Positions 6,160 to 49,034 of a stretch of 64,000 bases of DNA are shown piece by piece. The position numbers and the translations under genes were made by a program. Source of the DNA: Ignavibacteriota bacterium (GTDB taxonomy: Bacteria; Bacteroidota; Ignavibacteria; Palsa-1295); the NCBI GenBank assembly GCA_963787835.1, contig CAWBEI010000004.1, positions 96,001 through 160,000 of the forward strand, given 5' to 3'. Each line of letters begins with the position of its first letter. Positions within the stretch are counted from its first letter, which is position 1. The notes beneath the pieces are model-generated. The model worked only from the letters and a program-made list of their open reading frames with translations, was not told the origin of the DNA and ran no database searches.

Positions 6160-7923
6160 ATGAAAAAAATTATTATGTTCGCCATTCTGATGCTCCTGCC
6201 GCTCTGCGGCAGGGCGCAATGGCATTTGCTGCGTGATTTCGATAGTTACCTGCCTGCTGATATCCGGTCGAATGTTCAGCTAACTTCAATTTATTTCCTC
6301 GATCTCCCAGGGCCGCCCCGCATTGGATTCGTAGGCATGGATCACAACAATGTCGATAGTAATCAAGTATGGAAAACTACCGATGGCGGATGGACGTGGT
6401 ATTCGGTGAAAGCGCCGTATCACCCGGATCCTGTTTTTATAGGTTTGAATGCCGATGATTTTGCCTTCAAAGATAGCTCCACTGGCTGGCTCGCTAACTT
6501 TTGGGCGTGGGGAGGATGCGATGTGACGACGGACGCGGGAGAAACATGGACGACAGTTCCTATGCCGAATCCATCGAACCCCTGTTATCTCCTCTATTAT
6601 CATCATGCAACCAACCGCCTTTTTGCGGCCTTAGAAGCTGATAACTGGAGCCTCGTTTCGACTGACGAAGGAACTACCTGGCAAAGCATGAATTTATACT
6701 TTGTTGGGATTTCCTTCTCTGACGATTCAACAGGGATACTTCTGGGCGGGGCTTATTCTCTTGCTCCCCCAACAATTTACTATACAACTAATGGGGGAGT
6801 AACCTGGACACTCTCAAGCAGTTCTGTTCCCCCCGGCTGCGTTCATCCCCTTGCAATCAAAGGAACGAAAACATTCTTTATTGAAGATGTTGGCTGTGCT
6901 GTTTCCCGAAGTGACGACGGCGGACAGACGTGGCGCGAATTATCGATTGTTCCGTCACTCCATATTACTCTTGGAGAGGGAACAGGCGTGCTATTTGGGA
7001 ATTTACAAAACATTTACACCCAAACAGACGCTGGAATTTTTGTTTCGAAGGATTCAGGAATAACGTGGCAGAGTCTGTGCGGTCCCGGTAACAGTTTGGA
7101 CGGAGGCGAATTCACCAAATCTTTTTATGAACGGGATGGGCGCATATATGCTGGGGAATTTAATGATATTACACAAGGAAGGCTTTGGTATTTAAATACC
7201 GACTCTCTCAATATCTTTTCCTCCTCGCTTCACCTTACGCAAAGCACGTCGAGCGTAAGCAGTCTAAGCGTTCTCTTCCATCCACAAATAGATTCCACGG
7301 TTAGAGTCGATACGGCGCATTTTGCTATTCGGTATGATACCTCGCTTCTACTCAAATCGCTTCAGCTCCCAGCGGGTTGGAATATTCTCGATTCGAGTTT
7401 GAGTGGCAATACTATAAACATCACCATTTTTGATACCTTGAGCGAAGTCACTACACCATCTGTCACGTTGAATTTTGAACCGATCATAACGCCAACGAAA
7501 ACCTCCGGCATGATCTGGCTCGATTCAGCCAACCTTTCAGGCAAATGGATGAGCTGTGATATTTTGGCTCAATCCACATCTGCGCCAGATTCCGTTCAAA
7601 TCAATTTTAACGCCTGCGGGGATTCTCTTCTCCTTGCAGCGATGAGTGGCAAGCCGCTGTTCACGATCGAGAGCATTCAGCCGAATCCGGCGCAGGATGA
7701 GATCACGGTTCAGCTATCGGGGAATGTTCAGCCGGTTATCGAGATGTATGATGCGTTGGGCAGGGGGATGGATCCTTCGACAAGCTCAGGACAGGCTCCG
7801 CGCAGCACGTCCCTACGGAGTGGTATTTCGCTCGATGTTTCGGGTGTGCCATCGGGCATCTATTTTGTTCGGGTGTCGGCGGGAGGGTATGTGGAATCGC
7901 GGAGTGTAGTGGTGGAGCATTAA
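6160..7923 (+). CDS. BNR/Asp-box beta-propeller protein with T9SS type A C-terminal domain
   Basis: Signal peptide; repeated T/S-x-D-G-G-x-T-W motifs; [15 protein letters not shown]...YDALGR...PSGIYFVRV. Confidence 0.88.
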
Positions 7924-7927
7924 TTGT
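7588..7927 (+). repeat. T9SS CTD DNA module, copy 1
   Basis: About 14 mismatches over 177 nt (manual count, 7588-7764) against the copy starting at 48702; a 37-nt identical stretch is shared with the copy near 47032-47068. Confidence 0.9.
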
Positions 7928-8017
7928 CAGAAGCGGGATGACGCGGATTTCGATCTTGGATATTTGAGGATCAGAATGAGCGGATTATCGGCTGGGAACG
8001 GAAGTTCCCGCGTTGCT

Positions 8018-8142
8018 TCCGAACACAAAGTATATAAAATGTGGCGCTGCCTTTGGGAAAGCTTCGAAAATGGCATGTAATCGAGGGTACGGCAATGAAA
8101 AAGTGCAGCGGAACTCAGCTCCGGACACAAAGTATATAAAAT
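8018..8142 (+). repeat. Pair of 23-nt direct repeats, starts 102 nt apart
   Basis: TCCG(A/G)ACACAAAGTATATAAAAT at 8018-8040 and 8120-8142. Confidence 0.75.
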
Positions 8143-8417
8143 TGAGAATGCTTTTCACGGAGAATTAAAATTTGTGGAGAAAAGTGTTGATAAGTGGAAT
8201 TTTTTCCAGATGAATGGGTTTCCATGAGGGATGCTAAGCGCGGCCTGCCCTTCCGCGTTGTGCTTTTTAAGCCGGAGTGTGCCAATCTCCGGCTGCTCTA
8301 TCACCAAATCATTATGTATTCCGGTTCATTCGGAAACAAAATGGAGCTTTTCCATCGTATTAAGGATTGTAGATTTTCTCACTCCTTAATCCATTCAAAA
8401 ATGAGAAAAAACACAGC

Positions 8418-10829
8418 ATGACTAAACTCAAAACACCCAATCACCCTCTGCCGGAACGTGTCGATAAGCGCAGGACGCTTTGGGTATTTGCGCTAATGCT
8501 AACGTTTGCATTTATTGCAGGCTGTGGCAGCACGCCAAATACCACTCGTGAAACCCCCACAGCACAGGCTCCGGCCCCCGTAAAAGCAGATCCGTTTGCA
8601 GTGCTCGACGAACAAGCCAAGACCGGCAACATCGACCCTCACGTATTTCAGGAGAGAGTCGATGCCGCCCGTCAGGAATGGCTTCGCGCGTTGGTAGCCC
8701 AGCAAAAAAATGAGAAAACGGAAGTCGTGAAGCACTTTGAAAGCGCGATCGATATTCTGAACCGGCTGATCACCTATCCGGGCATCGATTCGAATACGGA
8801 TTTTAAAGATGTATCGAAGAGCGTGATCGGCGATTACGAGAAATATATTGCTCGGATCGACTCGCTTCCGTCGAATGCTTCGATCTTCGCATTTCGTGAG
8901 AAATTCAATCAGGAAATGACGAAAATGGACATCAAGAATGTCCCGCTGCCACGGATCGATCTTTCGAAAACGCAGATCCCGCTTACGATCAATACGGATG
9001 TCGAGCAATCCATCGCGTATTTTACCGAGGGCAACGGCCGCCCGTTTATGGAAAAATGGCTCGCTCGGACCGGAAGATATTTTCCGATGATGAAGGAGAT
9101 CATGAAGGAAGAGAAAGTGCCGGAAGAGATCATCCATCTCGCGATGATGGAAAGCGGGCTGAATCCTGCGGCGGTCAGTTGGGCAAAGGCAGTCGGTATG
9201 TGGCAGTTTATCGACGAGACGGGGTCGATCTATGGATTGCACAGCAATTGGTGGTTCGATATGCGCCGCGATCCCGTTGCGGCTACTCGCGCTGCCGCTC
9301 GTTTCCTGCGCGATCTCGATAACCAGCTCGGCGATTGGCACTTAGCCTTGGCCGCCTACGATTGTGGCGCGAACCGAATCCTTCAGGCGGAGGCGCAGGC
9401 GAATTCCAAGAGCTATTGGGACATTCGTCCTTTCCTGCCCAAGGAAACTCAGCGATATGTACCGCTTTTTATCGCCACGACGCTCATTTCGATGGACCCC
9501 GTGCGATATGGCTTCAACAATATCGTCTATGAGCAGCCCTTAAAATTTGACACCGTTCATTTGAAGGAAGCCATCGATCTGAAAGCCGTTGCGAAAGCGG
9601 CAGGCGTCAGTGATCTTGAAGTGAAGGAGCTAAATCCGGAATTGCTTCAACCCTCAACTCCGCCACTTGAGCTTTGTTCTCCAGATGGATATTGTTTGCG
9701 GCTGCCGGCTGGTGCAAGCCCGAGTTTTTATGAGCGGCTTGCTGCGATCCCACCCTCAGAGCGCCGACCCTGGCTGGTGCATACCGTTGCCAGAGGCGAG
9801 ACGATGCGCTCGATCGCGAAGCTATATGGCATTGGTACAGACCAACTCGCCGAGTACAATGATATGAGCGCAGGCGAGCACGTCAAGCGTGGAGAGCATC
9901 TGCGCGTACCCATGACCGTCATGGCGCCACAAACCGGTTCTTCTGAAGAAACAGCTTCTGCGCAGCAGGCCGGTTCTGACGATAGCGCACAACCCGGCGT
10001 TACACCCAAGCGTGTACCCATTGAGCAGGCCGCAACTGCCGGTGACTCCAAGCTTCGCCTTATTAAGCATAGAGTGCGCCATGGCGAAACACTCAACAGT
10101 ATCGCGATGGCGAACAGAGTCTCTGTATCGTCGCTCCGAAAATGGAACGACCTTTCGCGCCATGCAAACCTCCACAAGGGCGAAATGCTGAAAATTTACG
10201 AGACGAATATAGCTTCCGCAGTCAAACCAGGTTCGAAAAATGCTCAACTAGCTGCATCGAATAAAAAGTCAAAGCAAACGACGAAATGGGTGACGTATCA
10301 TGTCCGCCGCGGCGATACAATGGGCAAGATCGCAGATAATTTTGGAGTATCACTTAGCGAACTTCGAGCATGGAATCCCGGTGTCCGCAGAACGGTGCGT
10401 CAGGGACAAGCACTACGGGTCCATACGACGATAGATAATGCTGTTGACAATGCCAATATGGCTCAGTCGAACAAGCCAGCCGGTTCACCGACCTACCATA
10501 CTGTCCTTCCCGGTGAAACCCTGACTGCCATAGCGCACAAATTCGGCACAACACCAAACGATCTTTCCGACTGGAATGACGGACTTCAGGCCGACAATCT
10601 CCAGGCTGGCACAAAGATCAAGGTCTATGTACCAAATATTACCCCATCCCAGGGGGATCGCGTGCTTTCTCAGCATACGGCTAATCATCCGCTGACCTAT
10701 CGCGTGAAGCCTGGCGATACGCTTACGACCATTGCAGATGAATTTGGTGTGGGTGTCCGGGAGATCAAGCGCGTGAATCATCTCCACAGCTCACTGCTGA
10801 TCGCGGGTTTACGGCTGCGAATTCCCTGA
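8418..10829 (+). CDS. mltD: Lipoprotein lytic transglycosylase, MltD-like, with five C-terminal LysM domains
   Basis: Lipobox IAGC; SLT motifs AMMESGLNP, AVGMWQF, LALAAY, PKETQRYV; five [YH]xVxxG[DE]T LysM repeats. Confidence 0.9.
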   Translation: MTKLKTPNHPLPERVDKRRTLWVFALMLTFAFIAGCGSTPNTTRETPTAQAPAPVKADPFAVLDEQAKTGNIDPHVFQERVDAARQEWLRALVAQQKNEKTEVVKHFESAIDILNRLITYPGIDSNTDFKDVSKSVIGDYEKYIARIDSLPSNASIFAFREKFNQEMTKMDIKNVPLPRIDLSKTQIPLTINTDVEQSIAYFTEGNGRPFMEKWLARTGRYFPMMKEIMKEEKVPEEIIHLAMMESGLNPAAVSWAKAVGMWQFIDETGSIYGLHSNWWFDMRRDPVAATRAAARFLRDLDNQLGDWHLALAAYDCGANRILQAEAQANSKSYWDIRPFLPKETQRYVPLFIATTLISMDPVRYGFNNIVYEQPLKFDTVHLKEAIDLKAVAKAAGVSDLEVKELNPELLQPSTPPLELCSPDGYCLRLPAGASPSFYERLAAIPPSERRPWLVHTVARGETMRSIAKLYGIGTDQLAEYNDMSAGEHVKRGEHLRVPMTVMAPQTGSSEETASAQQAGSDDSAQPGVTPKRVPIEQAATAGDSKLRLIKHRVRHGETLNSIAMANRVSVSSLRKWNDLSRHANLHKGEMLKIYETNIASAVKPGSKNAQLAASNKKSKQTTKWVTYHVRRGDTMGKIADNFGVSLSELRAWNPGVRRTVRQGQALRVHTTIDNAVDNANMAQSNKPAGSPTYHTVLPGETLTAIAHKFGTTPNDLSDWNDGLQADNLQAGTKIKVYVPNITPSQGDRVLSQHTANHPLTYRVKPGDTLTTIADEFGVGVREIKRVNHLHSSLLIAGLRLRIP

Positions 10830-10874
10830 TAGTAACCCCTATTTACAAGGCCGACCGAAAATGATGAGACAGGA

Positions 10875-10904
10875 GGGGAACCAGACGAGCTGGTTTCCCA
10901 TTTT
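10875..10904 (+). terminator. Putative intrinsic terminator after mltD
   Basis: GGGGAACCAG-ACGAG-CTGGTTTCCC followed by ATTTT. Confidence 0.45.
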
Positions 10905-10936
10905 CCCGTCGCATTTTCAATACGCATCTAGAGCAG

Positions 10937-11009
10937 GCCGGCGTAGCTCAGTTGGTAGAGCAGCTGATTTGTAATCAGCAGGTCGTCGGTTCAAGTCCGT
11001 CCGCCGGCT
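10937..11009 (+). tRNA. tRNA-Thr(TGT)
   Basis: Acceptor stem GCCGGCG/CGCCGGC; anticodon arm GCTGA-TTTGTAA-TCAGC; GGTTCAAGT T-loop; no encoded CCA. Confidence 0.97.
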
Positions 11010-11016
11010 CTTTTGA

Positions 11017-11090
11017 CAATTAAGAATTAAGAATTAAGAATTAAAAGTGACGAATTCAACTTTTAATTCTTAATTCTTAATTCTTAATTG
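11017..11090. repeat. Heptamer inverted-repeat hairpin in tRNA spacer
   Basis: (AATTAAG)x3-AATTAAAAGT ... ACTTTT-(AATTCTT)x3-AATTG; long, near-perfect stem. Confidence 0.85.
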
Positions 11091-11095
11091 TCCTC

Positions 11096-11178
11096 GGGCA
11101 GATACTCAAGTGGCCAACGAGGACAGACTGTAAATCTGTTGACGATAGTCTACGAAGGTTCGAATCCTTCTCTGCCCA
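11096..11178 (+). tRNA. tRNA-Tyr(GTA)
   Basis: Acceptor stem GGGCAGA/TCTGCCC; anticodon arm ACAGA-CTGTAAA-TCTGT; long variable arm; GGTTCGAAT. Confidence 0.97.
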
Positions 11179-11183
11179 CTTAT

Positions 11184-11279
11184 TCAATTAATAATGAAGA
11201 ATTGAGAATTAAGAATTACGGAATCGGGTTTTGGGCCCTGAGTTCAATTCTTAATTCTTAACTATTAATTCTTAATTGA
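11184..11279. repeat. Heptamer inverted-repeat hairpin in tRNA spacer
   Basis: Degenerate AATTAAG repeats followed by inverted AATTCTT repeats, bounded by TCAATTAA/TTAATTGA. Confidence 0.8.
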
Positions 11280-11286
11280 ACCGCCG

Positions 11287-11359
11287 GCTCACGTAGCTCA
11301 GTTGGTAGAGCACATCCTTGGTAAGGATGAGGTCACCGGTTCAATCCCGGTCGTGAGCT
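11287..11359 (+). tRNA. tRNA-Thr(GGT)
   Basis: Acceptor stem GCTCACG/CGTGAGC; anticodon arm CATCC-TTGGTAA-GGATG; GGTTCAATC. Confidence 0.97.
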
Positions 11360-11493
11360 CAGCAGACGGATATTAACGGACTGGTGTTCTATTATTGTCC
11401 AGAGCTTCTCGGCATTTTTGAGTTGACACATTGTTCTTAATGGATACTCTTTTTCCCAAATCCTGTAAATCCATTATAATCCGATAAATCCGA

Positions 11494-13602
11494 GTGATAT
11501 TTCTCGGCCTCCACATTCTCGATTGGGCGATCATCGCACTCTACCTCGTTGCGCTGATCCTGATCGGCCGGTGGACGCAGCGGCGCGCCAGCCGATCGAC
11601 GAAGGATTTTTTTCAGGCCAATCGCAGCTTCGGCCGAGGAATTATGGGATTCCTGAATTTCGGCAATATGGTCTCAGCCGATCAGGCTGCTGGTGTAACA
11701 CGCGAGATCTACCGTCAGGGGTTGCAAGGAGTATGGTTCCAGAATCTCGTTCTGTTCATCACTCCATTTTATTGGTTCACATCGGTGCTGCAACGCCGTG
11801 CGCGTTACATCGGCCCTGGTGATATTTATGAACATCGATTCGAATCGAAATTTCTCGGAGGGCTTTTTGCTGTTTATCTTCTGCTTGCCTCGATCTATGG
11901 TTCCTCGATCGGGTATCTCATTACCGGTAAAACATTACAAGCTGTGATGTTAAAGCCGCCAGCAGCTTACACGATGCAAGAAAAACAAAGCGTAGCCCAG
12001 TTTCAGGAAATGCGCGCGATGGATATTGCTGCACAAAATGGAACACTCTCTGATTCTCTCAAACCGCGACTTTCGCTTTTGCATGAGAAAGAGCACACAG
12101 GACAAATTTCTGGGACGATCTCCTATCTCGACCTCGTAACGTTTTATTTGATCTATGGATGCGTGACGGCTGCGTATGTCATCATGGGAGGACTGTTCGC
12201 CGCTGCGTTTACCGATGTGATGCAGGGAATTATGATCATTTTCCTTTCTACAATTTTGATTCCAGTCGGTCTGACGAAGCTTGGCGGATTTTCCGGCCTT
12301 CATGCGCGCGTTGCAGACGATATGTTCCATTTGTTCGGTAGCGGCGCTGGTAGTGAATACACGTGGTGGTTCGTCGCGACAATGGTGCTGGTAAATCTGA
12401 TCGGTCTAGCACCTCGAAGCTTTACGCTGGGTGGTGCTGCAAAGGACGATAATTCTGCTCGCGTGGGAATGATAACAGGAGCATTCGTCAAGCGACTGGT
12501 GATGGTTGGGTGGGCACTCACGGGACTCATTGCCGTCGCACTGTATTCTGGCAAGCTTTCGGATGCTACCTATATCTGGGGAACGATGACACAGGATCTT
12601 CTCGGAGTTGGGTTTGTAGGTCTAATGATCGCAAGTGTGCTTGCGGCGAATATGGCATCGAAAGCATCTTCAAGTCTTGAATGGTCTGCGGCGTTCACTA
12701 AGAATATACTGGTGCCATTGCGTCCAAACACATCTGAAAAAACGCAGATTTTGGTCGGGCGCATTGTGATATTCATTGTCCTTATTGCAGGTATAGGATT
12801 TGCCTACATGGTCGATGATATTTTCGTCGTCTTTAAGTATGTGCTTTCGATTGGAACCATCATTGGCCCGTCGATCTGGCTGGTGTATTTCTGGCGACGG
12901 CTCACGACAAAAGCAGTGATCGTTCAAATGCTGCTTTCAATAATGGTTACGGTGGTCGTCCCGAACATCATCCCGCTTATCCCGTCGATTACGTCCACGC
13001 CGTCCATGACCATTATGACGCATGCCCGGGAACAGCATGAAACAACGAAAGCGAAACAAGACGATGTAAAAAGTGGAGCTGCACTTTACATTGGTGAATC
13101 AATTACGAAAGTTGAGCGAGAAGAACCCGTCGGAGTTTATTTTGAGAACATCGTTCATACCGATCCGTCCGACCCACATTCACAATTGCGGGGAAGTGGC
13201 ATGTTCCGATTTCAACTATGGCTCGTTGGGCTGACTGGAATTGATCTAACCGCCTTTTCTAAGGCAGGTCTTTCAGCACTTTCCTTTCTTTTCGATATTA
13301 TTTTTCCATTCCTGGTTCTATTTGTTGTAAGTTTATTCACAAAGCCCAATAGCGAACTGGTTTTGAGAGAATTTTATGCTCGAGTGCATACTCCGGCTGT
13401 TGCAGATCAAGAGAAAGATGCTATCGAAGTGAAAAAGCGCGTTGAAGATCCTTCGCTTGTCGAACAGGATAAGATGTTTCCTGGCACCAATTGGGAATTT
13501 TGGAAGCTTACGAAGAAAGATATGATGGGCTTCGGGCTATGCTGGCTTGGCGTAGGAGCGATAGTCTTACTATATATCGTTCTTACACAATTAGGATCAT
13601 AA
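11494..13602 (+). CDS. Sodium:solute symporter (SSS) family transporter with two large hydrophilic insertions
   Basis: LDWAIIALYL...KDFFQANRSFG; YVIMGGLFAAAFTDVMQG; about 13-14 hydrophobic segments. Confidence 0.92.
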   Translation: MIFLGLHILDWAIIALYLVALILIGRWTQRRASRSTKDFFQANRSFGRGIMGFLNFGNMVSADQAAGVTREIYRQGLQGVWFQNLVLFITPFYWFTSVLQRRARYIGPGDIYEHRFESKFLGGLFAVYLLLASIYGSSIGYLITGKTLQAVMLKPPAAYTMQEKQSVAQFQEMRAMDIAAQNGTLSDSLKPRLSLLHEKEHTGQISGTISYLDLVTFYLIYGCVTAAYVIMGGLFAAAFTDVMQGIMIIFLSTILIPVGLTKLGGFSGLHARVADDMFHLFGSGAGSEYTWWFVATMVLVNLIGLAPRSFTLGGAAKDDNSARVGMITGAFVKRLVMVGWALTGLIAVALYSGKLSDATYIWGTMTQDLLGVGFVGLMIASVLAANMASKASSSLEWSAAFTKNILVPLRPNTSEKTQILVGRIVIFIVLIAGIGFAYMVDDIFVVFKYVLSIGTIIGPSIWLVYFWRRLTTKAVIVQMLLSIMVTVVVPNIIPLIPSITSTPSMTIMTHAREQHETTKAKQDDVKSGAALYIGESITKVEREEPVGVYFENIVHTDPSDPHSQLRGSGMFRFQLWLVGLTGIDLTAFSKAGLSALSFLFDIIFPFLVLFVVSLFTKPNSELVLREFYARVHTPAVADQEKDAIEVKKRVEDPSLVEQDKMFPGTNWEFWKLTKKDMMGFGLCWLGVGAIVLLYIVLTQLGS

Positions 13603-13603
13603 C

Positions 13604-15571: not shown

Positions 15572-15576
15572 GTAAT

Positions 15577-16098
15577 ATGAAGGTCATCGTTATTTTTGTC
15601 ACAACGCTCGATGGAAAGATCACGAAGTGGGGCGATCTTCACGTGATGCGATGGTCCTCGCCCGAAGACCAGAAATACTTCCGAGCGATCTGGAACGATA
15701 GTCCGCTCATTATCATGGGAAGCAGCACGTTCGATTTCGATCCGATAAAACCCTCGCGGAAAAGTCTTCTTCATATCATGACGCGGAATCCCGAAAAATA
15801 TAAAATATACGAGGTTCCGGGAGAATTGGAGTTTTCGAGCGAAACGCCTAGGGAATTAGTGAAACGATTTGGATCGCAGTTCGAACAAATGCTCGTCGTT
15901 GGAGGGCCGCACGTTGCGACATCTTTTTTTAAGGATGGTCAGGTTGATGAGTTGTGGCTGACACTCGAACCTAAGATTTTCGGCGAGGGAGGGAATTTTG
16001 CGGTCGGAGCAGATCTTGACGTTGAGCTTTCCCTCATCAGTATGGAAAGAATGAACGACCGCGGGACATTGATTTTGAGATATCAAGTCATAAAATGA
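15577..16098 (+). CDS. Dihydrofolate reductase/RibD C-terminal domain protein
   Basis: TTLDGKI, IIMGSSTF, VVGGPHV, VDELWLTLEPKIFGEG. Confidence 0.9.
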   Translation: MKVIVIFVTTLDGKITKWGDLHVMRWSSPEDQKYFRAIWNDSPLIIMGSSTFDFDPIKPSRKSLLHIMTRNPEKYKIYEVPGELEFSSETPRELVKRFGSQFEQMLVVGGPHVATSFFKDGQVDELWLTLEPKIFGEGGNFAVGADLDVELSLISMERMNDRGTLILRYQVIK

Positions 16099-38772: not shown

Positions 38773-39429
38773 ATGGCACTAAACTCGGTATACCGGCGAA
38801 GAATGATCCAAATTTTGGATAACTCTGTGCTAACGTCCGGTAATTTTGATTACGATTTCTCACAAGATGGTGACGGGGTAGTATTGATAGTTTGTAAGCA
38901 TAACGAGCTTTACTACTTCTCGGCTAATTCCCGATTTCAAATCTCATGCGCTCCTAGCGAAGTCTTCGATAAGCAAGAAACGAATCTAAATAACATCGAA
39001 CAAGTTTTGGATGAATTGAAAAAATGGGTCGAGAGGGTTGAGCGAAACCTCGAGGCAGATGCAGAGCTCTATGGTGATATAGACGACTTTGTCAAAGAGT
39101 CTGAGACTTTTATTGAAGGGCTTCTGGATGCAAAGTTGCCAATCCCTGAAAATGAACAAGAATCGTGGGTTGAAAAACTAAGTACGTTGGAGCAGGAATG
39201 CATTAGAATTCTTGAGCAACAGAAAAAGGGAGCTGAGGCCATCGAACAATTAAGAAAAGACATAGACAACTTGAAAGCGAAGATAGGATCAATGCCAGCT
39301 GGTACTTGGCTACGAAGTGCTGCGGGTCGCTTTCGCAAGATTTATCAAAAAGCCAAAAATAACCCTCAAGCGAAGGCTTTCATGTTATGGGGGGCAGAGA
39401 AGGGAGTTGAAAAATTGCTTGGCATGTAG
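38773..39429 (+). CDS. Hypothetical protein with acidic coiled-coil C-half
   Basis: 218-aa AT-rich ORF co-oriented with the MTase/PLD pair; no family recognised. Confidence 0.75.
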   Translation: MALNSVYRRRMIQILDNSVLTSGNFDYDFSQDGDGVVLIVCKHNELYYFSANSRFQISCAPSEVFDKQETNLNNIEQVLDELKKWVERVERNLEADAELYGDIDDFVKESETFIEGLLDAKLPIPENEQESWVEKLSTLEQECIRILEQQKKGAEAIEQLRKDIDNLKAKIGSMPAGTWLRSAAGRFRKIYQKAKNNPQAKAFMLWGAEKGVEKLLGM

Positions 39430-39625
39430 TCCTCCCGCTTCCCGTCGCGCGGCTTGTGTCGTCCGCCTCCGTGTCTGAACTGGGATTAATGGGACGGGGA
39501 GGATTTTTGGGATGATCGTGCGTAATCCCAACCATCCAAATCATCCTCCTCTATGGGCAATTATGAATTATGAAGTATGAAGTATGAAAGGGGCCCATTT
39601 ATTTTTATTTATTTTCGAGAATCGC

Positions 39626-39654
39626 TTGACTTCCTGGAATTCCAATCGTATATT
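39626..39654 (+). promoter_or_regulatory. Sigma70-type promoter with no convincing downstream CDS
   Basis: TTGACT-N17-TATATT. Confidence 0.55.
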
Positions 39655-39831
39655 AGGTGGTGTGATGATGAGCACCAAGTGTCTATGGGAATTGTGTTTC
39701 GTGTCATGTTCATTGACAATCTGGCAGCCAGCGGTGGTTTTCGTTATGAACGAGTTCTCTGAGAATAGAATTTGTTGCAACAAATGGCGAAAACAGCCTG
39801 GAAACGACAGTTCATCGGGAACTCGAAAGAA

Positions 39832-39864
39832 AGAAAAATGGCACCATGTTCTGGGAGAACATGG
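39832..39864 (-). terminator. Hairpin downstream of tpl, possibly bidirectional
   Basis: CCATGTTCT-GGG-AGAACATGG with an A-rich run on its left, which is a T-tract on the minus strand. Confidence 0.55.
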
Positions 39865-39873
39865 ATTTGATAC

Positions 39874-41268
<1,395 letters not shown>

Positions 41269-41306
41269 TTAAAAAATGATGACGATAAATTATTGCTTAA
41301 GCAATA

Positions 41307-43583
41307 CTACTTGAAGGAGAACAGCATCGCCGGTCGGGGTAAATTTTCAGCTTCCATCTCCGGACCATGCAAGACGACCCTTGCATCAAGCGCAATGCAG
41401 CCTTCCGGCGAGGCAATAAGTGGATTAATATCGATCTCGGAGATCCACGGCTCATTGATAACTAACTGGCTGAATTTTACGAGCAGCGATTCAAGTCCGG
41501 CAACATCGATCGGCAACTTGCCGCGAGTTCCCTTTAGTGCCTGCCAGATATGGAGTTGCTCCATCATCTTGCGCGCCAGCGTATTATTGAGGGGCGGAAG
41601 TTCCAGCACGGTGTCCTTCATGACTTCGGCAAGGATGCCACCGGCTCCGAGCAGAAGAATAGGGCCAAATTGGGGATCGATGCTGCAGCCTAAGATGAGC
41701 TCGTATCCTTCCCGTTTTATCATCGGCTGGATGGAGACGCCATCGAAATCGCTTTCGTGACCTTTCGTGATCACGGAATCATGGATCTCCTTGAAGGCGC
41801 GGCTTACTTCATCCTCATTATGGATATTCAGCTTAACTCCGCCCACATCCGATTTATGGGTGATGGTCTTAGAAAGCAATTTTACAACGACGGGGAACCC
41901 GATGCGCCTCGCGGCATCGATGGCATCTCCGACTGTTGTAACAGCAACGGTTTCTGTAACGGGTATGCCATATTCGGTGAAGAGCTGCTTGGATTCGACT
42001 TCAGTCAGGATCGTTCGGCCTTCGGCTCGAACCTGGTCGATAATAGTGGAATGTTTTTGCAGCGGGTGCACAAAGTGGATGGAAGGTTCATCGGATTCCA
42101 AGGTGTTTAACCGTTCGCCGAATTTCCACATATAATTGAACACATTCGCTGCATCGTCCGGGAACTTGAAGGTGGGGATCCCGCCACGGCTCATGATGCC
42201 ATCGGCAGCGGAGACGTCCTCGCCTCCCATGAAGGATGCAATGAGCGGCTTGCCGAGTTTTGCATACTTCGCAATATTGGTTGCCATGGTTTGTGGCCGG
42301 GCCGCCACGAGCGGCGCGGTGATAGCAAGTACGCCGTCGGTGCCTTCGTCATTTAGTGCCAGTTCCACGGCACGTTCGAAGGTTGCTTCGGTGGCATCGG
42401 CAAGGATATCAACGGGGTTCCCATGGCTCCAGTGTGGCGGAAGAATTTCATTGAGGGCGCCCATGGTGTCCGGTGAAAGCTGCGCAAGTTGGCCGCCGCC
42501 CTCCATGAGGGCATCGGCCGCCAACACGCCCGGGCCACCGGCGTTCGTTACAATGGCAAGGCGTCGCCCTTTGGGGCGAGGTTGCTTGGCAAGGACGTCA
42601 GCAATATGGAAAAGTTCACCAATGCGATCGAGCCTCAGAACGCCGGCACGCCGAAACGCGGCATCGAGGACGGCATCGCTTCCGGTCAGAGCGCCGGTAT
42701 GCGAAGCAGCAGCTTTGGCGGCAGCTTCGGTGCGTCCGGCTTTAATTACGATGATCGGCTTACGAAGAGCGACCTCACGAGCGGCCGCAAGAAAGCGTGG
42801 AGCATTCCCGATGGACTCCATATAGATCACAATGGATTCCGTATTCGGATCGCTTCCAAGATAATCTATGAGATCACCCCATCCCACATCGAGCATCGAT
42901 CCGACGGAAACGAAGGCACTGAATCCCAAAGCCTCATTCAAGCTCCAGTCGAGGATCGCGGTGCAGAGCGCTCCGCTCTGGCTGATGAATGCCACATTCC
43001 CTGGCAAGGCTGCTTTTCGAGCGAACGTCGCATTCAGGCGATCGATGGGGTTCATCACTCCGATACAGTTCGGTCCTATGATGCGGAGTTGCGTGCCACG
43101 GATCCGGTCAGATATTTCTTTCTCAAGCGCCTTTCCTGCGGCTCCTGTTTCCCGAAATCCGGCAGAAATAATGATCGCACCTCGAACGCCTCTCTCTACG
43201 CATTCACTAATGATCGCTGGAACTGTGGCAGCAGGAGTTACGATCGCAGCCAGATCAACTTGCTTGGGAATATCGGCAAGCGAAGCGTATGCAGTATGCC
43301 CGGCAACCGTCTTACGGGTGGGATTGACGGCGAATATCTCCAAACCTGGGCGGACGTGTGAAAAGAGATTCGAGGTCAGAGCTTCCCCCGGGCTTCCCGG
43401 ACGTTCCGTAGCACCAATGATCGCGATGCTTTTGGGGTGGAAGAAGACGTTCAGAGGATGTTGAGTGGAGGGCGATGGAGTATGAGAAGCATCGCCGGCG
43501 ATACTTCTCGAGCTTTCCAATCCATCTATCAGGTTCTTACCCATCGTTCGAGGCGCGGGGTCTAAGATTTCTGTTGTAGGCAT
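41307..43583 (-). CDS. Acyl-CoA synthetase (ADP-forming), fused alpha/beta; Pat-like but without GNAT domain
   Basis: IGPNCIG, SQSGAL, catalytic His in [18 protein letters not shown]-grasp [14 protein letters not shown]; ends [11 protein letters not shown]. Confidence 0.9.
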
Positions 43584-43936
43584 TACCGAGGTGAATAAAT
43601 CTTTGAAAATACTAAATTATCAGATGTGAAAAGCGTTGAGATTGATAAAAATGCTACAATCCTGTGCCATCTCCAGGATCCATCGTGGATTTTGAAAAGA
43701 TGGCAAAATAACAGGCCAGCGCAATTTTCATGTGTGCTGGCCCCGAACAATAAACGTTCAATTTTCTTACGGTTGGGTCAATTCTTTTATGTATTTGATC
43801 TCCAGAAATAGCAGCAGATAGGGTGGGATATGCAGGCAATATTCCCCGAACACTCCTATCACACCATGACGGATTATCTCAGCCGCGCATGGTTGGTGTA
43901 TAAGCCGTAGGGGGTTCGTTTCTTTTCATTCCCGCA

Positions 43937-43996
43937 GTGTATAAACCGGGTTTTAACCCGGAGCGAATTTTCACCGGGTTGAAACCCGGTGTACAC
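43937..43996. repeat. GTGT...ACAC REP doublet (REPIN-like), 60 bp
   Basis: GTGTATAAA-CCGGGTT-TT-AACCCGG, spacer, CCGGGTT-GA-AACCCGG-TGTACAC. Confidence 0.75.
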
Positions 43997-44215
43997 CCAA
44001 CCTATTCTGTCTTCATGAAAAGCACTATTTTAATGAATAAATAGCTTTCGCTGTTACCTTTTTGCTTTTCATAGGTCTTCTTAATTTAAGGGCGATATGC
44101 TTTCGAGCAATTATTAGGATCATAGGAATAGACGATGCTCTTAGTAGAATAACAATTTTGGACCCCACGCCCATCCAGGAGTGTGAGGCTCTTTGTTTTT
44201 ATGGAACGAAGTTTT

Positions 44216-47212
44216 ATGCGAACTCTCGGAATTGTTTTGGTAGCAATGGTCTGCGTTTCGCAAGCCTGTGCCCAATCAAGTTCACATTGGAGAAAAATGG
44301 GACAGTTTCCACCTGACTATCCAATAGCGTGTGGTTATTTTTGGAATACCCAGCATGGAATTGTCGGGGGAATTGACGGAATCTTTTATACAACAAATGG
44401 AGGAACAACTTGGCAGACAAGCGCGGTGCCAAGTTTTTCCGCTTATATCACATCCATTTATATGAAAGATACACTCGCTGGATGGGCTTCGTTAGCAACG
44501 CTCCAGCCTGGAACAACAGTTTTGTGGCAAACAATGGATGGTGGCGTTACATGGAAAAACGTACCTGGTTATGTGTCAGGAGGGAAGCAGCCGGACGGAA
44601 ATGGAGATTCCGACGATCCCTCAGGTATTACTGATATTTCGATTGCACCCACAACCGGTGCTTTAATCCTTACCTCATGGGGTTTGCATTTTACTTTTCC
44701 GCCAGAGGATGCAACTTCCATTACATGGGATAGCACTGGATTGGGTGTAATTGGCGGCTTCGGAGATTGTTACGTTTCGTCCAATAGGGGAAAGACATGG
44801 AAAATGACAGGCAACGATCCTGGATGGGCATTCGGAATTTTTCCTTCTTCAAATTGGCATACATTTTTTGAAGTCTCATACGTGCTTCCATGGGGAACGA
44901 TTTATACATCGAAAGATCAGGGAGCGACATGGGACTCGGTTTATGCCACGGGGCAGCTAATGACTGGCGATGCCGAAGGCGCCCCGGGGGTTTGTTATGT
45001 TCAGAGTAGCAGCAACGGTATCTATCGAACTACCGATACTGGTAACACATGGGTAAATATTGGTGGCCCATCCAATGTGGAAATCACACGTTTTTGCGTG
45101 CTGGGTTGTAACGGGGCAACTGTGATCGCATTCGATGACACAGGTGGCGTTTGGCTAACACAGGATGGCGGCGATGGAACGCTTTCCAAAGCTATTCAAA
45201 CTCTCTTGATCGATACGTTCCCATCCGTTTCACAATGCTCACAGAGTAGGATGGGCGTAAAACTCAACATCTCAAATTCCTGCCAGAACTCGTTCTCGCT
45301 TACGGGTTATCATTTAGAGGACGATACTACTCATTTTTCGCTTGATTCATTGCTCCCATTTCCTAAATCTTATGGCGGCGGAGACTACACTGACTCTTTT
45401 TACGTTTCTTTCAACCCACAAACACAGCCCGGCACATTTACGACGAAGTTACACGTAACCGGGACGGTATTCTTGTCGGATAGTTCTTTTTCGTATGACA
45501 CGGTAATTTTGATAACTGCAACTTCGACTCCAAGCCGGCCCAATATCATTGCATCTGATTCTTTGCTCGCTTTTGGCGCGATCTCCACTTGCAATGGAAC
45601 GGCGCTTGCATCTGTCACTTTCAAGAACGGCGGTTGTGCCCCGGATACGATCACAAACTTTACACTTTCCGGTACGGGTTTCACAGGCCCGAATGATACA
45701 CTACCCATAATTGTGCTAGCAGGTGATTCGGTGAAACTTGAGTATCGTTTCGTTCCGCCGGATTCGGGTGTGTTTACCGGTCAGGCACAGTTGAATGTGG
45801 TTTCGATGGGCCTGACGGAAAATCCGGTGATTGACTTGTCCGGTCAGGGTGTGCAGGGCCTTGGGGTGCTGGACGTGCGCAGCATGGGACTACAAGCGGG
45901 AAGTTTCTCTTTCTGCACGGGCGATACGACGCTTACAGACACCATCTCGAACACCGGCTGCGACACGCTGGTGATCTCGAATATCCGATTTGCGGGTGGG
46001 TCGGCGTTCTCGCTTCTTTCAGTAAGCGGGGATTCTCTATTGCTTCCGGGTGCAAGCCGCGTGTTTCAGTTTCATTTTGTGCCGAGAACGAAAGGTGCGC
46101 AGTCCGCCACACTGACGTTTCATTCCCAGAATATCGTGAACGATGCCGGGCACGATACAACCATCACGCTTGCGGGTATCGGACTCGGTGGCACAAAGAT
46201 ACTTACAGCCGATACATCGCTCCGGGATTTTGGTGGGTTGTATGCGTGCCAGTCGCGGGATACAACGATTGTGCTTTCCAATCCGGGGTGCGATACGCTT
46301 CGGATCGATAGTGGTACTGTGAACAATGGTACGTATTCGACGAACGCGATTTATCCGATCATACTTCCACCTGATTCCTCTGTGTCAGTTACAATTCATT
46401 TAACCGCCGATAGCGCGGGCATGAATGGAACGCTCACATTCTTCAGCGATGCCAACAAGGGTGATAGCGTGGTAACGATTCCGCTCACGGCAAGCATCAT
46501 TCCGCCAGCGCATTTGGTTCTCGCACTTTCGCCATCGGACACCGCAACGGATGGTACACTTGTGAAATGCTACGTACTGCTCGAAGGTCAGGTGCCTCCC
46601 GGTGCGATCTCCGGGATGCAGTTCGATATTACGCATAATGACGATCTGCTAAGTTTTTTGAATGCAAGCGGGGTAACGATGACTGGAACTGCTGGAACTC
46701 CGGAGGCGCAGGTGCTGCATTTTGCTGCGGGGAGTCAGGCTGGAAGCCCGACCTACGCGGATACTATTGGGACAATCACGTTCCGGGTGTATCTGAGCGA
46801 TTCCATCTTTACGCCGCTTTCATTATCGAACGTGACGTTTACGAATTCACTTTCCTTATCGGATGATTGCGTAGCGAGCATTCTCGATTCGGGAGCGTCG
46901 TTCACCTATCTCTATCGTTGCGGCGAACCGATCATACAGGATGCGATGGAGAACGTGACGCCATTCTCGATCGAATCAATTGTTCCCAATCCGGCAGGAG
47001 ATGAGATCACCATTGAGTTATCGGGGAGTGCTCAGCCGGTTATCGAGATGTATGATGCGTTGGGCAGGAGTGTGCTGACCACCCCCCAGCCCCCTCCTTC
47101 TATAGGAGTGGGAGTAGTGCTCGATGTGTCTGAGGTGCCATCGGGAATCTATTATCTCAGGTTTTCGTCCGAAGGGTGTGTTCAGACAAGGAGGATTTCG
47201 GTTGCGCGGTAA
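44216..47212 (+). CDS. T9SS cargo: BNR propeller, several ASH/choice-of-anchor-D-like Ig domains, cohesin-like domain and CTD
   Basis: Signal peptide from ATG 44216; TTNGGTTW-type boxes; repeated NxGC(D)T motifs; IVPNPAGDEITI...YDALGR...PSGIYYLR. Confidence 0.85.
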   Translation: MRTLGIVLVAMVCVSQACAQSSSHWRKMGQFPPDYPIACGYFWNTQHGIVGGIDGIFYTTNGGTTWQTSAVPSFSAYITSIYMKDTLAGWASLATLQPGTTVLWQTMDGGVTWKNVPGYVSGGKQPDGNGDSDDPSGITDISIAPTTGALILTSWGLHFTFPPEDATSITWDSTGLGVIGGFGDCYVSSNRGKTWKMTGNDPGWAFGIFPSSNWHTFFEVSYVLPWGTIYTSKDQGATWDSVYATGQLMTGDAEGAPGVCYVQSSSNGIYRTTDTGNTWVNIGGPSNVEITRFCVLGCNGATVIAFDDTGGVWLTQDGGDGTLSKAIQTLLIDTFPSVSQCSQSRMGVKLNISNSCQNSFSLTGYHLEDDTTHFSLDSLLPFPKSYGGGDYTDSFYVSFNPQTQPGTFTTKLHVTGTVFLSDSSFSYDTVILITATSTPSRPNIIASDSLLAFGAISTCNGTALASVTFKNGGCAPDTITNFTLSGTGFTGPNDTLPIIVLAGDSVKLEYRFVPPDSGVFTGQAQLNVVSMGLTENPVIDLSGQGVQGLGVLDVRSMGLQAGSFSFCTGDTTLTDTISNTGCDTLVISNIRFAGGSAFSLLSVSGDSLLLPGASRVFQFHFVPRTKGAQSATLTFHSQNIVNDAGHDTTITLAGIGLGGTKILTADTSLRDFGGLYACQSRDTTIVLSNPGCDTLRIDSGTVNNGTYSTNAIYPIILPPDSSVSVTIHLTADSAGMNGTLTFFSDANKGDSVVTIPLTASIIPPAHLVLALSPSDTATDGTLVKCYVLLEGQVPPGAISGMQFDITHNDDLLSFLNASGVTMTGTAGTPEAQVLHFAAGSQAGSPTYADTIGTITFRVYLSDSIFTPLSLSNVTFTNSLSLSDDCVASILDSGASFTYLYRCGEPIIQDAMENVTPFSIESIVPNPAGDEITIELSGSAQPVIEMYDALGRSVLTTPQPPPSIGVGVVLDVSEVPSGIYYLRFSSEGCVQTRRISVAR
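46734..46756 (-). repeat. Single GTAG-type REP inside a T9SS cargo gene
   Basis: Minus strand reads GTAG-GTCGGGC-TTCCA-GCCTGAC; encodes SQAGSPTY. Confidence 0.7.
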
Positions 47213-47276
47213 ATTAATCGCCGATTTGAAAGGAAGAGAATTCTACGGAACGAATACCAAGCCTATCAATGCTGGC

Positions 47277-49031
47277 ATGGTATTCCCGTTTTTTCTTTTT
47301 TTCGTGGCAGCAATCATCCTAACAACTTCTGGAAAACTTTATGCTCAATGGGAACCCGTGATAACTTTGCCAGGGCCAATTTGCACCGTTTATTTTATGG
47401 ATCAGGTTGGTAAGCCAGAAATTGGGTTCATAAGTGCATATTGGAATCAGTTAGTCAAATTCGATACGAACCATTACTTGTGGCGGACATCCGATGCTGG
47501 AATGACATGGCGAGGGCTTGATATTCCCCCAGCTGATACGGAGCCGTGGCTTAGAGGTGGGGCAAGGGACTTCGCGTTCAAAGATAGCTTGAATGGTTGG
47601 ATGGCAAATTATATTAACTTTCAAACAACGGATGCAGGGCTTTCGTGGATTCCGATGTCTCCCGACATCAATGGTCCCGCCGATGAGGATTGGGCAATCG
47701 CCTATAATTCTGAAACGAAGTTATTGTTTTGTTCTCGTATTACTAATGGTGTTGGAGCAACCGATACGGCAAAATCTTCTTCTGACGATGGCACAACATG
47801 GAAAGCTCTCGCTCCGTTATGCTCATACAACGGATATGCATTTTCCGGTTTGAATGGGATTGTGACTGGTTTAGAGAGTATTCCTGTTCCCGCTTTATAC
47901 ACCACGGATGGTGGCTATACATGGCTTGAAAGTAATTTTTCTGATGAGTGTTATCAACCGGCATGTATCCCAGGAACGAACACTTTTGTCGCAGAATCTG
48001 AATTAATGCATAGAATATCACGATCAGATGATGGTGGAAAAACATGGCGGACAATCTTTACTCTTAATAATTATCCCAGTGCTTACAGCTCGAGTGGTTG
48101 TATTCGCACGGACGACTGCGGAAATCTTTATGTGGTGACCTTCGAAGGCTTTTTCATGTCTTCTGATGCGGGTGATAGCTGGCATTCAATCGGCGGCCCT
48201 GCAGAATGGAAAGACGTTAGATTTTGGGTAACGAAAGATTATATTTATGCTGCGGACCAAAAAGATGTGGCGATGTATGACCAGTATCCCAGCACGGTAT
48301 GGCGCTATCCTTTGCATAACCGGGTTACGTTTGCGCTGACCGACAGCTCCAAACTCACCTCCATAAAGCCTGGAACGGATGTCAGCGTGAATATTCCGGT
48401 TGAGATCAATCAATCGCTTGGCTCCGATTCGCTCCATTTGGTAATCCGGTTCGATACTGCGCCATTGGAACTGAAAAATATCCTTCTTACGGGCGGTCTC
48501 TCGCTTATCGACTCCAGTTCTAATGACGATACACTAAATTTATGGCTTGTACTTGATTCCAATCAAGTATCGCGATCGCCAAATATCGGTTTAACATTTA
48601 AAACATTCCTCAATAGCCCCACCGCAAAGATCCATCTCGATTCCACACAATTTTATGGTGGTTGCGCAACATGCAACTGCGCGTTAGCTGTTTCTCATCC
48701 CGATTCCGTTCAAATCAATTTTAACGCCTGTGGGGATTCGCTTCTTCTTGCAGCGATGAATGGCAGGCCGTTGTTCACGATCGAGAGTATTCAGCCGAAT
48801 CCGGCGGCGGATGAGATCATGGTTCAGTTATCTGGGAATGTTCAGCCCGTTATCGAGATGTATGATGCGTTGGGAAGGAGTGTGCTCGCGCAGAGGACCA
48901 CCCCCCAGCCCCCTCCTTCTATAGGAGGGGGAGTAATACTCGATGTGTCGGGTGTGCCATCGGGGATTTATTTTCTGCGGGTGTCGTCGGGAGGGTATGT
49001 GCAATCGAGGAGTGTGGTGGTGCAGCATTAA
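47277..49031 (+). CDS. BNR/Asp-box beta-propeller protein with T9SS CTD; paralogue of 6160-7923
   Basis: Signal peptide from ATG 47277; DFAFKDS.xGW shared with the paralogue; near-identical CTD. Confidence 0.87.
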   Translation: MVFPFFLFFVAAIILTTSGKLYAQWEPVITLPGPICTVYFMDQVGKPEIGFISAYWNQLVKFDTNHYLWRTSDAGMTWRGLDIPPADTEPWLRGGARDFAFKDSLNGWMANYINFQTTDAGLSWIPMSPDINGPADEDWAIAYNSETKLLFCSRITNGVGATDTAKSSSDDGTTWKALAPLCSYNGYAFSGLNGIVTGLESIPVPALYTTDGGYTWLESNFSDECYQPACIPGTNTFVAESELMHRISRSDDGGKTWRTIFTLNNYPSAYSSSGCIRTDDCGNLYVVTFEGFFMSSDAGDSWHSIGGPAEWKDVRFWVTKDYIYAADQKDVAMYDQYPSTVWRYPLHNRVTFALTDSSKLTSIKPGTDVSVNIPVEINQSLGSDSLHLVIRFDTAPLELKNILLTGGLSLIDSSSNDDTLNLWLVLDSNQVSRSPNIGLTFKTFLNSPTAKIHLDSTQFYGGCATCNCALAVSHPDSVQINFNACGDSLLLAAMNGRPLFTIESIQPNPAADEIMVQLSGNVQPVIEMYDALGRSVLAQRTTPQPPPSIGGGVILDVSGVPSGIYFLRVSSGGYVQSRSVVVQH

Positions 49032-49034
49032 TTG
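48702..49034 (+). repeat. T9SS CTD DNA module matching 7588-7927, with a C/G-rich hairpin at 48900-48933 (also at 47081-47114)
   Basis: Direct alignment; insert ACCCCCCAG-CCCCCTCCT-TCTAT-AGGAGGGGG encodes TPQPPPSIGGG. Confidence 0.9.

What the first reader, a model, noticed from the sequence alone, without database searches (positions are those of the whole stretch)
7588..49034. T9SS cargo paralogues have diverged propellers, homogenised C-terminal DNA and one insertion hotspot
Seen: 6160-7923 and 47277-49031 share only patchy protein motifs in the propeller, then become about 92% identical in DNA from 7588/48702 to the YDALGR codons (manual count 14/177 mismatches, many synonymous). They stay similar to the stop. 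The third cargo shares a 37-nt identical block. Just after YDALGR each carries a palindromic insert: family-A REP with a CCTTCGACAAGCTCAGG element nested in it (7773-7816, [16 protein letters not shown]) versus a C/G hairpin (47081-47114 and 48900-48933, TPQPPPSIG). Inference: an expanded secreted-protein family in which the sorting module is exchanged by gene conversion or recombination while binding domains diversify, with REP hairpins as possible recombination landmarks.
Basis: partly seen in the sequence, partly recalled or inferred. Interest (0 to 1): 0.72.

Follow-up and report, generated by a model that had tools for sequence, protein, structure and literature searches.

The report
Shared secretion tails carrying frozen hairpins
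Three secreted-protein genes of an uncultured Kapabacteria-type bacterium have very different front ends but near-identical export tags, likely because the tags are copied between genes by recombination, and one loop of the tag carries interchangeable DNA hairpins that stay almost unchanged across related species.

Summary
Observation confirmed: 14/177 mismatches from 7588/48702, 9 of them silent; a 37-nt A/B block; inserts at the stated positions.

The genes are type A T9SS cargo in a genome with 255 such tails. The A and C bodies are saturated at silent sites, but their tails are not (pS 0.76 vs 0.36). Propeller and tail trees conflict, and AU tests reject congruence both ways. Tails cluster by genome across five species, with staggered breakpoints. 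Assembly collapse is unlikely.

The hairpins are dispersed repeat families. They are not required for exchange: 10 of 12 tail-sharing clusters have none detected. Yet their DNA is 91-100% identical at silent sites between species, against 53-54% in the flanks, and insert type is unlinked to the flanks. The tails also show an unexplained G excess.

Best reading: concerted evolution and terminal reassortment of a secretion tag, like H. pylori bab 3' ends, with an actively refreshed hairpin loop. This is a new variant of a known process. The scan noted similar T9SS tail sharing on other DNA before.

The parts
6160..7923 (+). Gene A: BNR/Asp-box beta-propeller, middle beta-sandwich domain, linker, type A T9SS C-terminal domain (587 aa)
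   Evidence: TIGR04183 39 bits vs cut-off 23; PF18962; BNR; model and fold search
44183..47212 (+). Gene B: propeller, choice-of-anchor-D/ASH-type Ig repeats, T9SS CTD (1009 aa from a GTG; true start may lie a few codons later)
   Evidence: TIGR04183 34.9 bits, NF012200
47277..49031 (+). Gene C: same layout as A (584 aa); propeller closest to genes of more distant species
   Evidence: TIGR04183 36.8 bits; propeller 59-61% to a G004 gene
7585..7764 (+). Homogenised tract in A (linker plus first half of the CTD), 92% identical to 48699-48878
48699..48878 (+). Homogenised tract in C
   Evidence: junction to C's own body seen in an independent contig
7831..7923 (+). Second half of the CTD in A, 83/93 identical to 48939-49031
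48939..49031 (+). Second half of the CTD in C
7728..7764 (+). 37-nt block identical between A and B (B copy at 47032-47068)
47032..47068 (+). B copy of the 37-nt block, in a tail otherwise 62% identical to A
7770..7816 (+). Composite in-frame insert in A: GTAG-type palindrome with a 24-nt element (7774-7797) nested in one arm; low-confidence loop in the model
   Evidence: covered with 0 differences by an independent contig
47081..47114 (+). C/G-run hairpin in frame in B; same family flanks a DUF559 nuclease gene at C2:1483396
48900..48933 (+). C/G-run hairpin in frame in C
49142..49294 (+). Dispersed intergenic repeat of about 150 nt downstream of C; a copy also follows paralogue D
   Evidence: 94% to C2:1065348, 87% to C2:328439
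2200..6114 (+). Large fibre-like gene upstream of A; also lies upstream of A's closest relative in G006 at another locus
   Evidence: weak NF053851 and PF21300 hits below cut-off; gene map

Best explanation
These genes are type IX secretion cargo whose last roughly 330 bases (linker plus sorting domain) are likely copied among scattered paralogues by ordinary homologous recombination, while the propeller front ends are old lineages that stay apart or are replaced. The short conserved tag is the only stretch where the genes are alike enough to pair. Patchwise conversion there would keep tails genome-specific, and crossovers at the linker or PNPA motif would graft the tail onto unrelated bodies, giving new secreted proteins. 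One surface loop of the tag tolerates inserts and holds either of two dispersed hairpin families. These are swapped independently of the flanks and likely refreshed from the genome's other hairpin copies, so they ride on the exchange rather than cause it. Shown: mosaic structure, tree conflict, genome-specific silent sites, frozen hairpins. Inferred: RecA-type conversion, refreshing of the hairpins, secretion, and a binding role for the propellers.
For: A/C body pS 0.76 vs tail 0.36; fourfold sites 14/74 vs 34/45. A's body has a 70%-identical relative in G006 with dS 1.47, matching the 1.3-1.4 of neighbouring orthologues, so the bodies are older than the species. Propeller tree: A+G006_L033 100/100, C+G004_L031 100/98. 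Tail tree: the four G000 tails form one side of a branch (90/99); genome labels need 6 changes on the tail tree and 11 on the propeller tree, minimum 5. AU tests: propellers reject A+C (p 5e-59); tails reject A+G006_L033 (p 0.035) and C+G004_L031 (p 0.006). Among 43 tails of 5 genomes, fourfold identity is 0.63 within vs 0.52 between genomes (0 of 2000 permutations), and 33 of 43 nearest neighbours are in the same genome. Staggered identical runs of 37, 53, 65 and 71 nt (0-2 of 5000 shuffles); E switches to another CTD after PNPA, and F and H join at about PNPA. Genome-wide, 41 of 255 CTD genes in 12 clusters show the same discordance, with tail fourfold identity 0.47-0.86 vs body 0.19-0.35. 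Shared tracts are richer in G+C at fourfold sites than their bodies in 12 of 13 CTD families, two by only 0.01. 10 of 12 clusters lack a detected repeat. No RVT_1 reverse transcriptase was found.
Against: The A/C tract itself has no significantly long identical run (26 nt, 2579 of 5000 shuffles) and dS is about 0.5, so this exchange is old and not shown to be ongoing. The tail tree is short (183 columns) with only 3 starred branches; G006 and G014 tails are not single clades. 10 of 43 nearest neighbours are in another genome, up to 88.7% identical. Raw between-species tail identity (0.52) exceeds the housekeeping value (0.45-0.52) and falls below it only after allowing for the G-rich composition. 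Plain conversion explains neither the G-over-C excess nor, by itself, the frozen hairpins. No chimeric alleles were seen in the low-depth contigs.
Confidence: 0.72

Rival explanations
1. The hairpins drive the exchange. A hairpin-recognising nuclease (RAYT-, DUF559- or Ssn-like) nicks at the loop, and repair from a paralogue converts the tail, so the tag behaves as a nuclease-addressed cassette.
For: 41 of 43 tails of this subfamily in five genomes carry one of two hairpin families (tallied). Hairpin fourfold sites are 552/606 and 795/795 identical between genomes, against 0.53-0.54 in the flanks. Insert type is unlinked to flank similarity (22 of 40 nearest neighbours share it). The C/G hairpin flanks a DUF559 gene, and GIY-YIG genes are flanked by repeats with similar ends. 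The tails have a strand-specific G excess. SsnA cuts ssDNA at its repeat and alters transformation (PMC11893778 passages).
Against: 10 of 12 tail-sharing clusters have no detected repeat. CTD tails overall are not hairpin-rich (20 of 255 vs 52 of 500 controls). Breakpoints sit at the linker and PNPA. None of 9 Y1 transposase loci is flanked by this GTAG hairpin within 600 nt. Another cluster with a hairpin in 5 of 19 members shows no G excess. The same hairpins sit in many unrelated ORFs.
Confidence: 0.15
2. Strong purifying selection on the sorting domain plus shared codon bias keeps the tails alike without recombination.
For: Tail dN is low (0.10-0.15). The G-rich third positions raise chance identity to 0.42.
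Against: Silent identity is genome-specific and reaches 0.72 within G000. 171 of 255 CTDs have no DNA-level partner. Long identical runs end abruptly. The trees conflict.
Confidence: 0.05
3. Recent whole-gene duplication followed by very fast divergence of the propeller.
For: A, C, D and E share one domain layout.
Against: Body silent sites are saturated. Each body has closer relatives in other species than in its own genome. The AU test rejects G000 propeller monophyly, p 4e-57.
Confidence: 0.03
4. Assembly collapse or mis-joining of repeats.
For: The genome is an uncultured-organism assembly. A's own junction at 7588 is not bridged by an independent contig.
Against: The copies differ by 8-17%, which collapse would not give. 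Independent contigs join C's body to the tail, cover A's insert with 0 differences and cross B's body into its tail with 0 differences. Four other genomes show their own tail signatures.
Confidence: 0.02

Closest known systems
Helicobacter pylori babA/babB concerted evolution (PMC3960876, passages)
   Same: Dispersed surface-protein paralogues whose 3' segments are more alike within a genome than between genomes, attributed to RecA-dependent gene conversion.
   Different: Here the shared part is a roughly 330-nt secretion tag. It spans about 12 clusters and 41 genes, joins unrelated bodies, is seen between species, and carries in-frame hairpins.
Terminal reassortment of secretion signals (type III effectors, Bartonella BID; PMC5675462 passages citing Stavrinides 2006, which I could not open)
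   Same: New secreted proteins arise by fusing a terminal secretion signal to other sequence.
   Different: C-terminal T9SS signal in a free-living soil lineage, with continued homogenisation after fusion.
Porphyromonas gingivalis gingipain/HagA domain rearrangement (PMC5266723, passages)
   Same: Mosaic T9SS cargo produced by domain rearrangement and allelic exchange.
   Different: The passages read concern adhesin and catalytic domains. The CTD is called conserved there, not analysed as the exchanged unit.
Rickettsia palindromic elements and intragenic REP/MITE insertions (PMC10969869, passages)
   Same: Palindromic repeats inserted in frame in protein-coding genes.
   Different: RPEs are about 150 bp in unrelated genes. 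These are 23-34 nt, alternate at one loop of a shared module, and nest inside each other.
Ssn-NTS repeats (PMC11893778, passages) and REP-RAYT systems (recalled)
   Same: Short hairpin repeats found around small nuclease genes.
   Different: NTS are rarely intragenic (2%). No nuclease was shown to act on these tails, and the GTAG-type hairpin has no flanked RAYT in this assembly.

Membership tests
Type A T9SS cargo | C-terminal TIGR04183/PF18962 domain above cut-off | tested here: met
   39, 34.9 and 36.8 bits vs 23; PF18962 38.4, 32.4 and 33 vs 27
Type A T9SS cargo | Ig-like beta-sandwich fold of the CTD | tested here: inconclusive
   All-beta C-terminal domain in both models. Mirolase and RgpB CTDs appear only at E 0.003-0.02 from a low-confidence model.
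Type A T9SS cargo | N-terminal Sec signal peptide | tested here: inconclusive
   Hydrophobic N-termini ending before AQ/AQW seen by eye; no predictor run
Type A T9SS cargo | T9SS machinery in the genome | tested here: met
   PorV family, 4 over cut-off; PorU sortase over cut-off; other components not searched
Type A T9SS cargo | Actual secretion and CTD cleavage | not testable with these tools
   Needs proteomics or a heterologous reporter
Concerted evolution by gene conversion (bab-type) | Paralogue segments more alike within than between genomes at silent sites | tested here: met
   0.63 vs 0.52, 0 of 2000 permutations
Concerted evolution by gene conversion (bab-type) | Conflicting trees for converted and unconverted parts | tested here: met
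Concerted evolution by gene conversion (bab-type) | Patchy tracts with sharp borders | tested here: met
   4 of 5 pairs tested have significant runs; A/C does not
Concerted evolution by gene conversion (bab-type) | Ongoing chimeric alleles; RecA dependence | tested here: inconclusive
   Only low-depth contigs of one study, none clearly chimeric; RecA dependence untestable
REP/REPIN-RAYT | Short multicopy palindrome dispersed in the genome | tested here: met
   42 GTAG-type, 19 C/G-type and 9 nested-element matches
REP/REPIN-RAYT | RAYT (Y1) gene flanked by the same repeat | tested here: not met
   0 of 9 Y1_Tnp loci have this GTAG hairpin within 600 nt; they are flanked by other repeats
DUF559-flanking hairpin repeats | Nuclease gene flanked by inverted copies of the hairpin | tested here: met
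   1 of 2 DUF559 genes (C2:1483396) is flanked on both sides by the C/G family; activity unknown
Ssn-related motifs | Match to the SRM consensus and an SsnA homologue | not tested
   Only a by-eye resemblance of the nested element to the ends of repeats around 2 of 5 small GIY-YIG genes
Diversity-generating retroelement | Reverse transcriptase gene | tested here: not met
   No PF00078 match in the 98%-complete genome

The most novel reading that the evidence does not exclude
The T9SS tag of this subfamily is a nuclease-addressed, semi-mobile secretion cassette. Domesticated hairpins, held at the DNA level across species, are nicked on one strand. That starts strand-polarised conversion (leaving the G-over-C footprint) and lets incoming propeller genes recombine onto a resident tail at stable loci such as ftsK-mltD. 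Selfish repeats would thus build the secretome.
Probability: 0.15. Interest if true: 0.82.

Novelty: new variant of a known kind. Interest (0 to 1): 0.5.

Why it matters
T9SS sorting domains are usually treated as independently drifting signals. Here, genome-wide and cross-species evidence shows them being exchanged as modules, which offers a simple route to a 255-member secretome and means CTD trees do not track cargo history. The frozen, swappable hairpins and the G excess give concrete handles for asking whether repeat-associated nucleases steer this exchange. The process itself (3'-end concerted evolution, terminal reassortment, in-frame palindromes) is known from other systems. My nine searches found no paper describing it for T9SS CTDs, but the library lacks most subscription journals.

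Tried and rejected
G excess as a general mark of converted DNA: rejected. Skew rose in only 12 of 20 families and did not correlate with local strand skew (rho -0.01, n=20).

G-quadruplex trigger: G4Hunter maxima of 0.76-1.4 in the subfamily overlap other clusters; not pursued.

Retro-element mechanism: no RVT_1.

Hairpin enrichment in all CTD tails: none.

Tail staying with its locus, tested with downstream DNA: not discriminating. A's tail is equally close to the syntenic G006 gene and to its body orthologue (pS 0.43 vs 0.42).

Known RNA family in the tails: only three tRNAs in the window.

No RNA holder listed, so expression is untested. A's junction at 7588 had no contig cover. A joint 47068-48939 in one contig at 85% likeness had only 30 letters on its short side and fits paralogue F or A; not counted as a chimera.

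The single-sequence model of A's C-terminal part was poor (pLDDT 53). The middle domain has no Pfam match, and a cohesin-like fold was not established. Propeller fold hits (sialidase, GH74, Ycf48, sortilin; 10-16% identity) give no function.

The Minerva preprint passages had nothing on this.
Full report
Observation. Genes A (6160-7923), B (44183-47212) and C (47277-49031) all end in a type A T9SS sorting domain above the curated cut-offs and begin with BNR/Asp-box propellers. From 7588/48702, A and C differ at 14 of 177 nt, 9 silent and 5 replacement, and at 10 of the last 93 nt. Upstream the identity falls to chance level. The 37-nt block is shared by A and B. The inserts lie where stated. 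The genome (3.57 Mb, 7 contigs) has PorV and PorU homologues. Two records with close relatives of C are labelled Candidatus Kapaibacterium sp., so I call the organism Kapabacteria-type.

The family in this genome. An iterated profile found 255 ORFs ending in a CTD. 84 of them fall into 21 clusters by tail DNA, and 171 have no partner. The A/B/C cluster has six members (A, B, C; D C2:326389; F C2:550684; H C3:286399). A seventh gene, E (C2:1656333), shares only the linker. A/C bodies are 34% identical in protein with saturated silent sites (pS 0.76), while the tails have pS 0.36, dS 0.48. Breakpoints are staggered. A and C join at the linker start. D and E share the middle domain and linker, then E switches to another CTD right after PNPA. 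F and H, with different bodies, join at about PNPA. Identical runs of 37 (A/B), 65 (A/D), 53 (A/E) and 71 nt (D/E) are reached in 0-2 of 5000 codon shuffles; the A/C run of 26 nt is not significant. Genome-wide, 41 of 255 genes in 12 clusters have a tail at least 82% identical to a partner whose body is under 50% identical or unrelated. Fourfold-site identity in those pairs is 0.47-0.86 in tails and 0.19-0.35 in bodies.

Across species. All 14 genus relatives have the protein subfamily. I fetched 40 regions, chosen from the top tail hits, the top propeller hits and the syntenic loci. Most came from G002, G006, G009 and G014, a few from G003, G004, G008 and G013, and none from G001, G005, G007 or G010-G012. 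Selecting by similarity to C's tail favours between-genome likeness, which is conservative for the test below. Each genome has its own tail signature. Among 43 tails of five genomes, with inserts excluded, fourfold identity is 0.63 within and 0.52 between genomes (0 of 2000 label permutations), and 33 of 43 nearest neighbours are in the same genome. Neighbouring orthologues are 0.45-0.52 identical at fourfold sites, dS 1.1-1.4 (that pool includes a few antisense ORFs, which inflate it). Tail third positions are G-rich, so chance identity is 0.42 against 0.26 genome-wide. By my arithmetic the excess over chance is about 0.17 for between-genome tails, 0.27 for orthologues, 0.36 for within-genome tails and 0.52 within G000. 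Cross-species tail transfer is therefore not required, though pairs up to 88.7% identical do not exclude it.

Trees. For 24 proteins of the 600-aa class, the propeller tree pairs A with G006_L033 (100/100) and C with G004_L031 (100/98). The tail DNA tree puts all four G000 tails on one side of a branch (90/99). Genome labels need 11 changes on the propeller tree and 6 on the tail tree, minimum 5. AU tests reject A+C (p 5e-59) and all-G000 (p 4e-57) on propellers, with one long-branch row left out and a quick search. On tails they reject the propeller pairs (p 0.035 and 0.006); these groups were named after seeing the trees. The tail tree is weak elsewhere, with 3 starred branches. C's propeller is 53-61% identical to genes of G003, G004 and G008 but at most 43% to anything in the closer G002, G006, G009 and G014, which fits import of the front end or differential loss. 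The ftsK-mltD interval is empty in G009. It holds tail-bearing cargo in G000, G002, G006 and G014, with propellers only 31-41% identical to A's. A's true body relative sits elsewhere in G006, behind the same fibre-like gene. This fits front-end replacement at a stable site, but downstream DNA could not prove that the tail stayed in place.

The inserts. Tallied, 20 of 43 tails carry the GTAG-type palindrome (the name is recalled), 21 carry a C/G-run hairpin, one carries heptamer repeats and one has no repeat. Both types occur in all five genomes, the C/G type in G014 as a variant. Further variants occur in G003 and G014, and a second insertion site lies after the second strand in some G006, G009 and G014 tails. 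In the model of A the insert is a low-confidence loop between two strands. All three elements are dispersed: 42, 19 and 9 matches, of which 19, 16 and 2 lie in ORFs of 150 aa or more (crude gene calls overcount this). One is in the FtsK-like linker at window 102-119. A's composite also occurs at three other places. The C/G family flanks a DUF559 gene. The nested element resembles, by eye, the ends of repeats around small GIY-YIG genes. No Y1 transposase is flanked by the GTAG hairpin. The hairpin DNA is nearly frozen: fourfold sites are 552/606 (19 tails) and 795/795 (20 tails, left arm) identical between genomes, against 0.53-0.54 for the flanks of the same pairs, and insert type does not track flank similarity (22 of 40). 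These pair counts are not independent. 21 of 39 copies in G000, the tail copies included, match the GTAG-type motif exactly, so refreshing from the dispersed pool is plausible. Against a causal role, only 9 of 255 tails and 6 of the 41 discordant genes carry a detected repeat. That screen undercounts one cluster, where 5 of 19 tails carry a degenerate hairpin. It leaves 10 of 12 clusters without one.

Base composition. Shared tracts are richer in G+C at fourfold sites than their bodies in 12 of 13 CTD families. This fits GC-biased conversion, AT-rich foreign bodies, or both. In this subfamily the excess is G alone: 0.61 G and 0.13 C against 0.28 and 0.24 in bodies. Its members are the five most G-rich of 255 tails. 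The homogenised part of the giant tandem pair C2:500210/506165 shows the same (G 0.55-0.66, against 0.23 in its unconverted end). The skew is not general and does not follow local strand skew. It remains unexplained. Strand-polarised heteroduplex with poor repair of C:C mismatches is one untested idea from recalled knowledge; MutS1 and ComEC are present.

Artefact check. Low-depth contigs from four runs of one study, possibly related to the source sample, match the window. One joins C's unique body to the tail, one covers A's insert without differences, and one crosses B's body into its tail. A's own junction is not covered.

Comparison with what is known. The pattern works like H. pylori babA/babB, whose 3' segments show intrastrain similarity attributed to conversion (PMC3960876, passages). 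It also works like terminal reassortment of secretion signals (PMC5675462, passages). Mosaic T9SS cargo is described in P. gingivalis (PMC5266723, passages), in-frame palindromes in Rickettsia (PMC10969869, passages), and nuclease-linked hairpins in the Ssn family (PMC11893778, passages). I read no supplements; the Ssn motif tables may bear on the nested element. Nine searches found no paper on T9SS CTD homogenisation. Earlier unchecked notes of this scan report similar tails, some with palindromes, in other genomes.

Verdict. The finding is real and well supported as recombinational exchange of a secretion tag: a new variant of a known kind. The frozen, swappable hairpins and the G excess are the parts worth following. 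Interest 0.5.

Noticed in passing
window 102-119 (-), G000 C4:96102: A GTAG-type hairpin sits in frame in the disordered linker of the FtsK-like protein that runs off the window's left end.
   Followed up: partly
G000 C2:500210-494541 and C2:506165-500499: The homogenised 4.8 kb of this giant tandem pair has G 0.55-0.66 and C mostly 0.10-0.21 at fourfold sites, against G 0.23 in the unconverted end. The excess is G-specific, not just G+C.
   Followed up: partly
window 49142-49294 and 49053-49119: A dispersed intergenic repeat of about 150 nt with dozens of partial copies, and a long hairpin, follow gene C. A copy of the repeat also follows paralogue D.
   Followed up: partly
G000 C4:405194-405850: Two direct copies of the composite hairpin bracket a small two-gene pair that looks by eye like a RelE/ParE-type toxin-antitoxin module; not searched against a library.
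   Followed up: no
G000 C2:1483200-1483850, C5:324220, C2:1221612, C2:1256678, C2:1473150, C2:1244874: DUF559, small GIY-YIG and Y1 genes are each flanked by their own inverted hairpin families.
   Followed up: partly
G000 C2:376824, C2:429245, C2:517372, C2:1512212, C5:347220: A second CTD cluster carries a different degenerate palindrome in another loop, in 5 of 19 members.
   Followed up: partly
window 2200-6114; L033, L034, L031, L013: Fibre-like genes without a Pfam match above cut-off repeatedly precede the 600-aa propeller cargo genes and appear to move with them.
   Followed up: partly
L023:6864 vs L014:5423; G000 D vs E: The middle domain is also exchanged: near-identical middle domains on different propellers.
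   Followed up: partly
window 10937-11359, 1723-1807, 39554-39584: Three tRNA genes are separated by heptamer tandem repeats that recur elsewhere in the window.
   Followed up: no
G000 C2:1845930-1903306: Several genes in this stretch have very high G+C at fourfold sites, unlike the rest of the genome; possibly foreign or mis-binned DNA.
   Followed up: no
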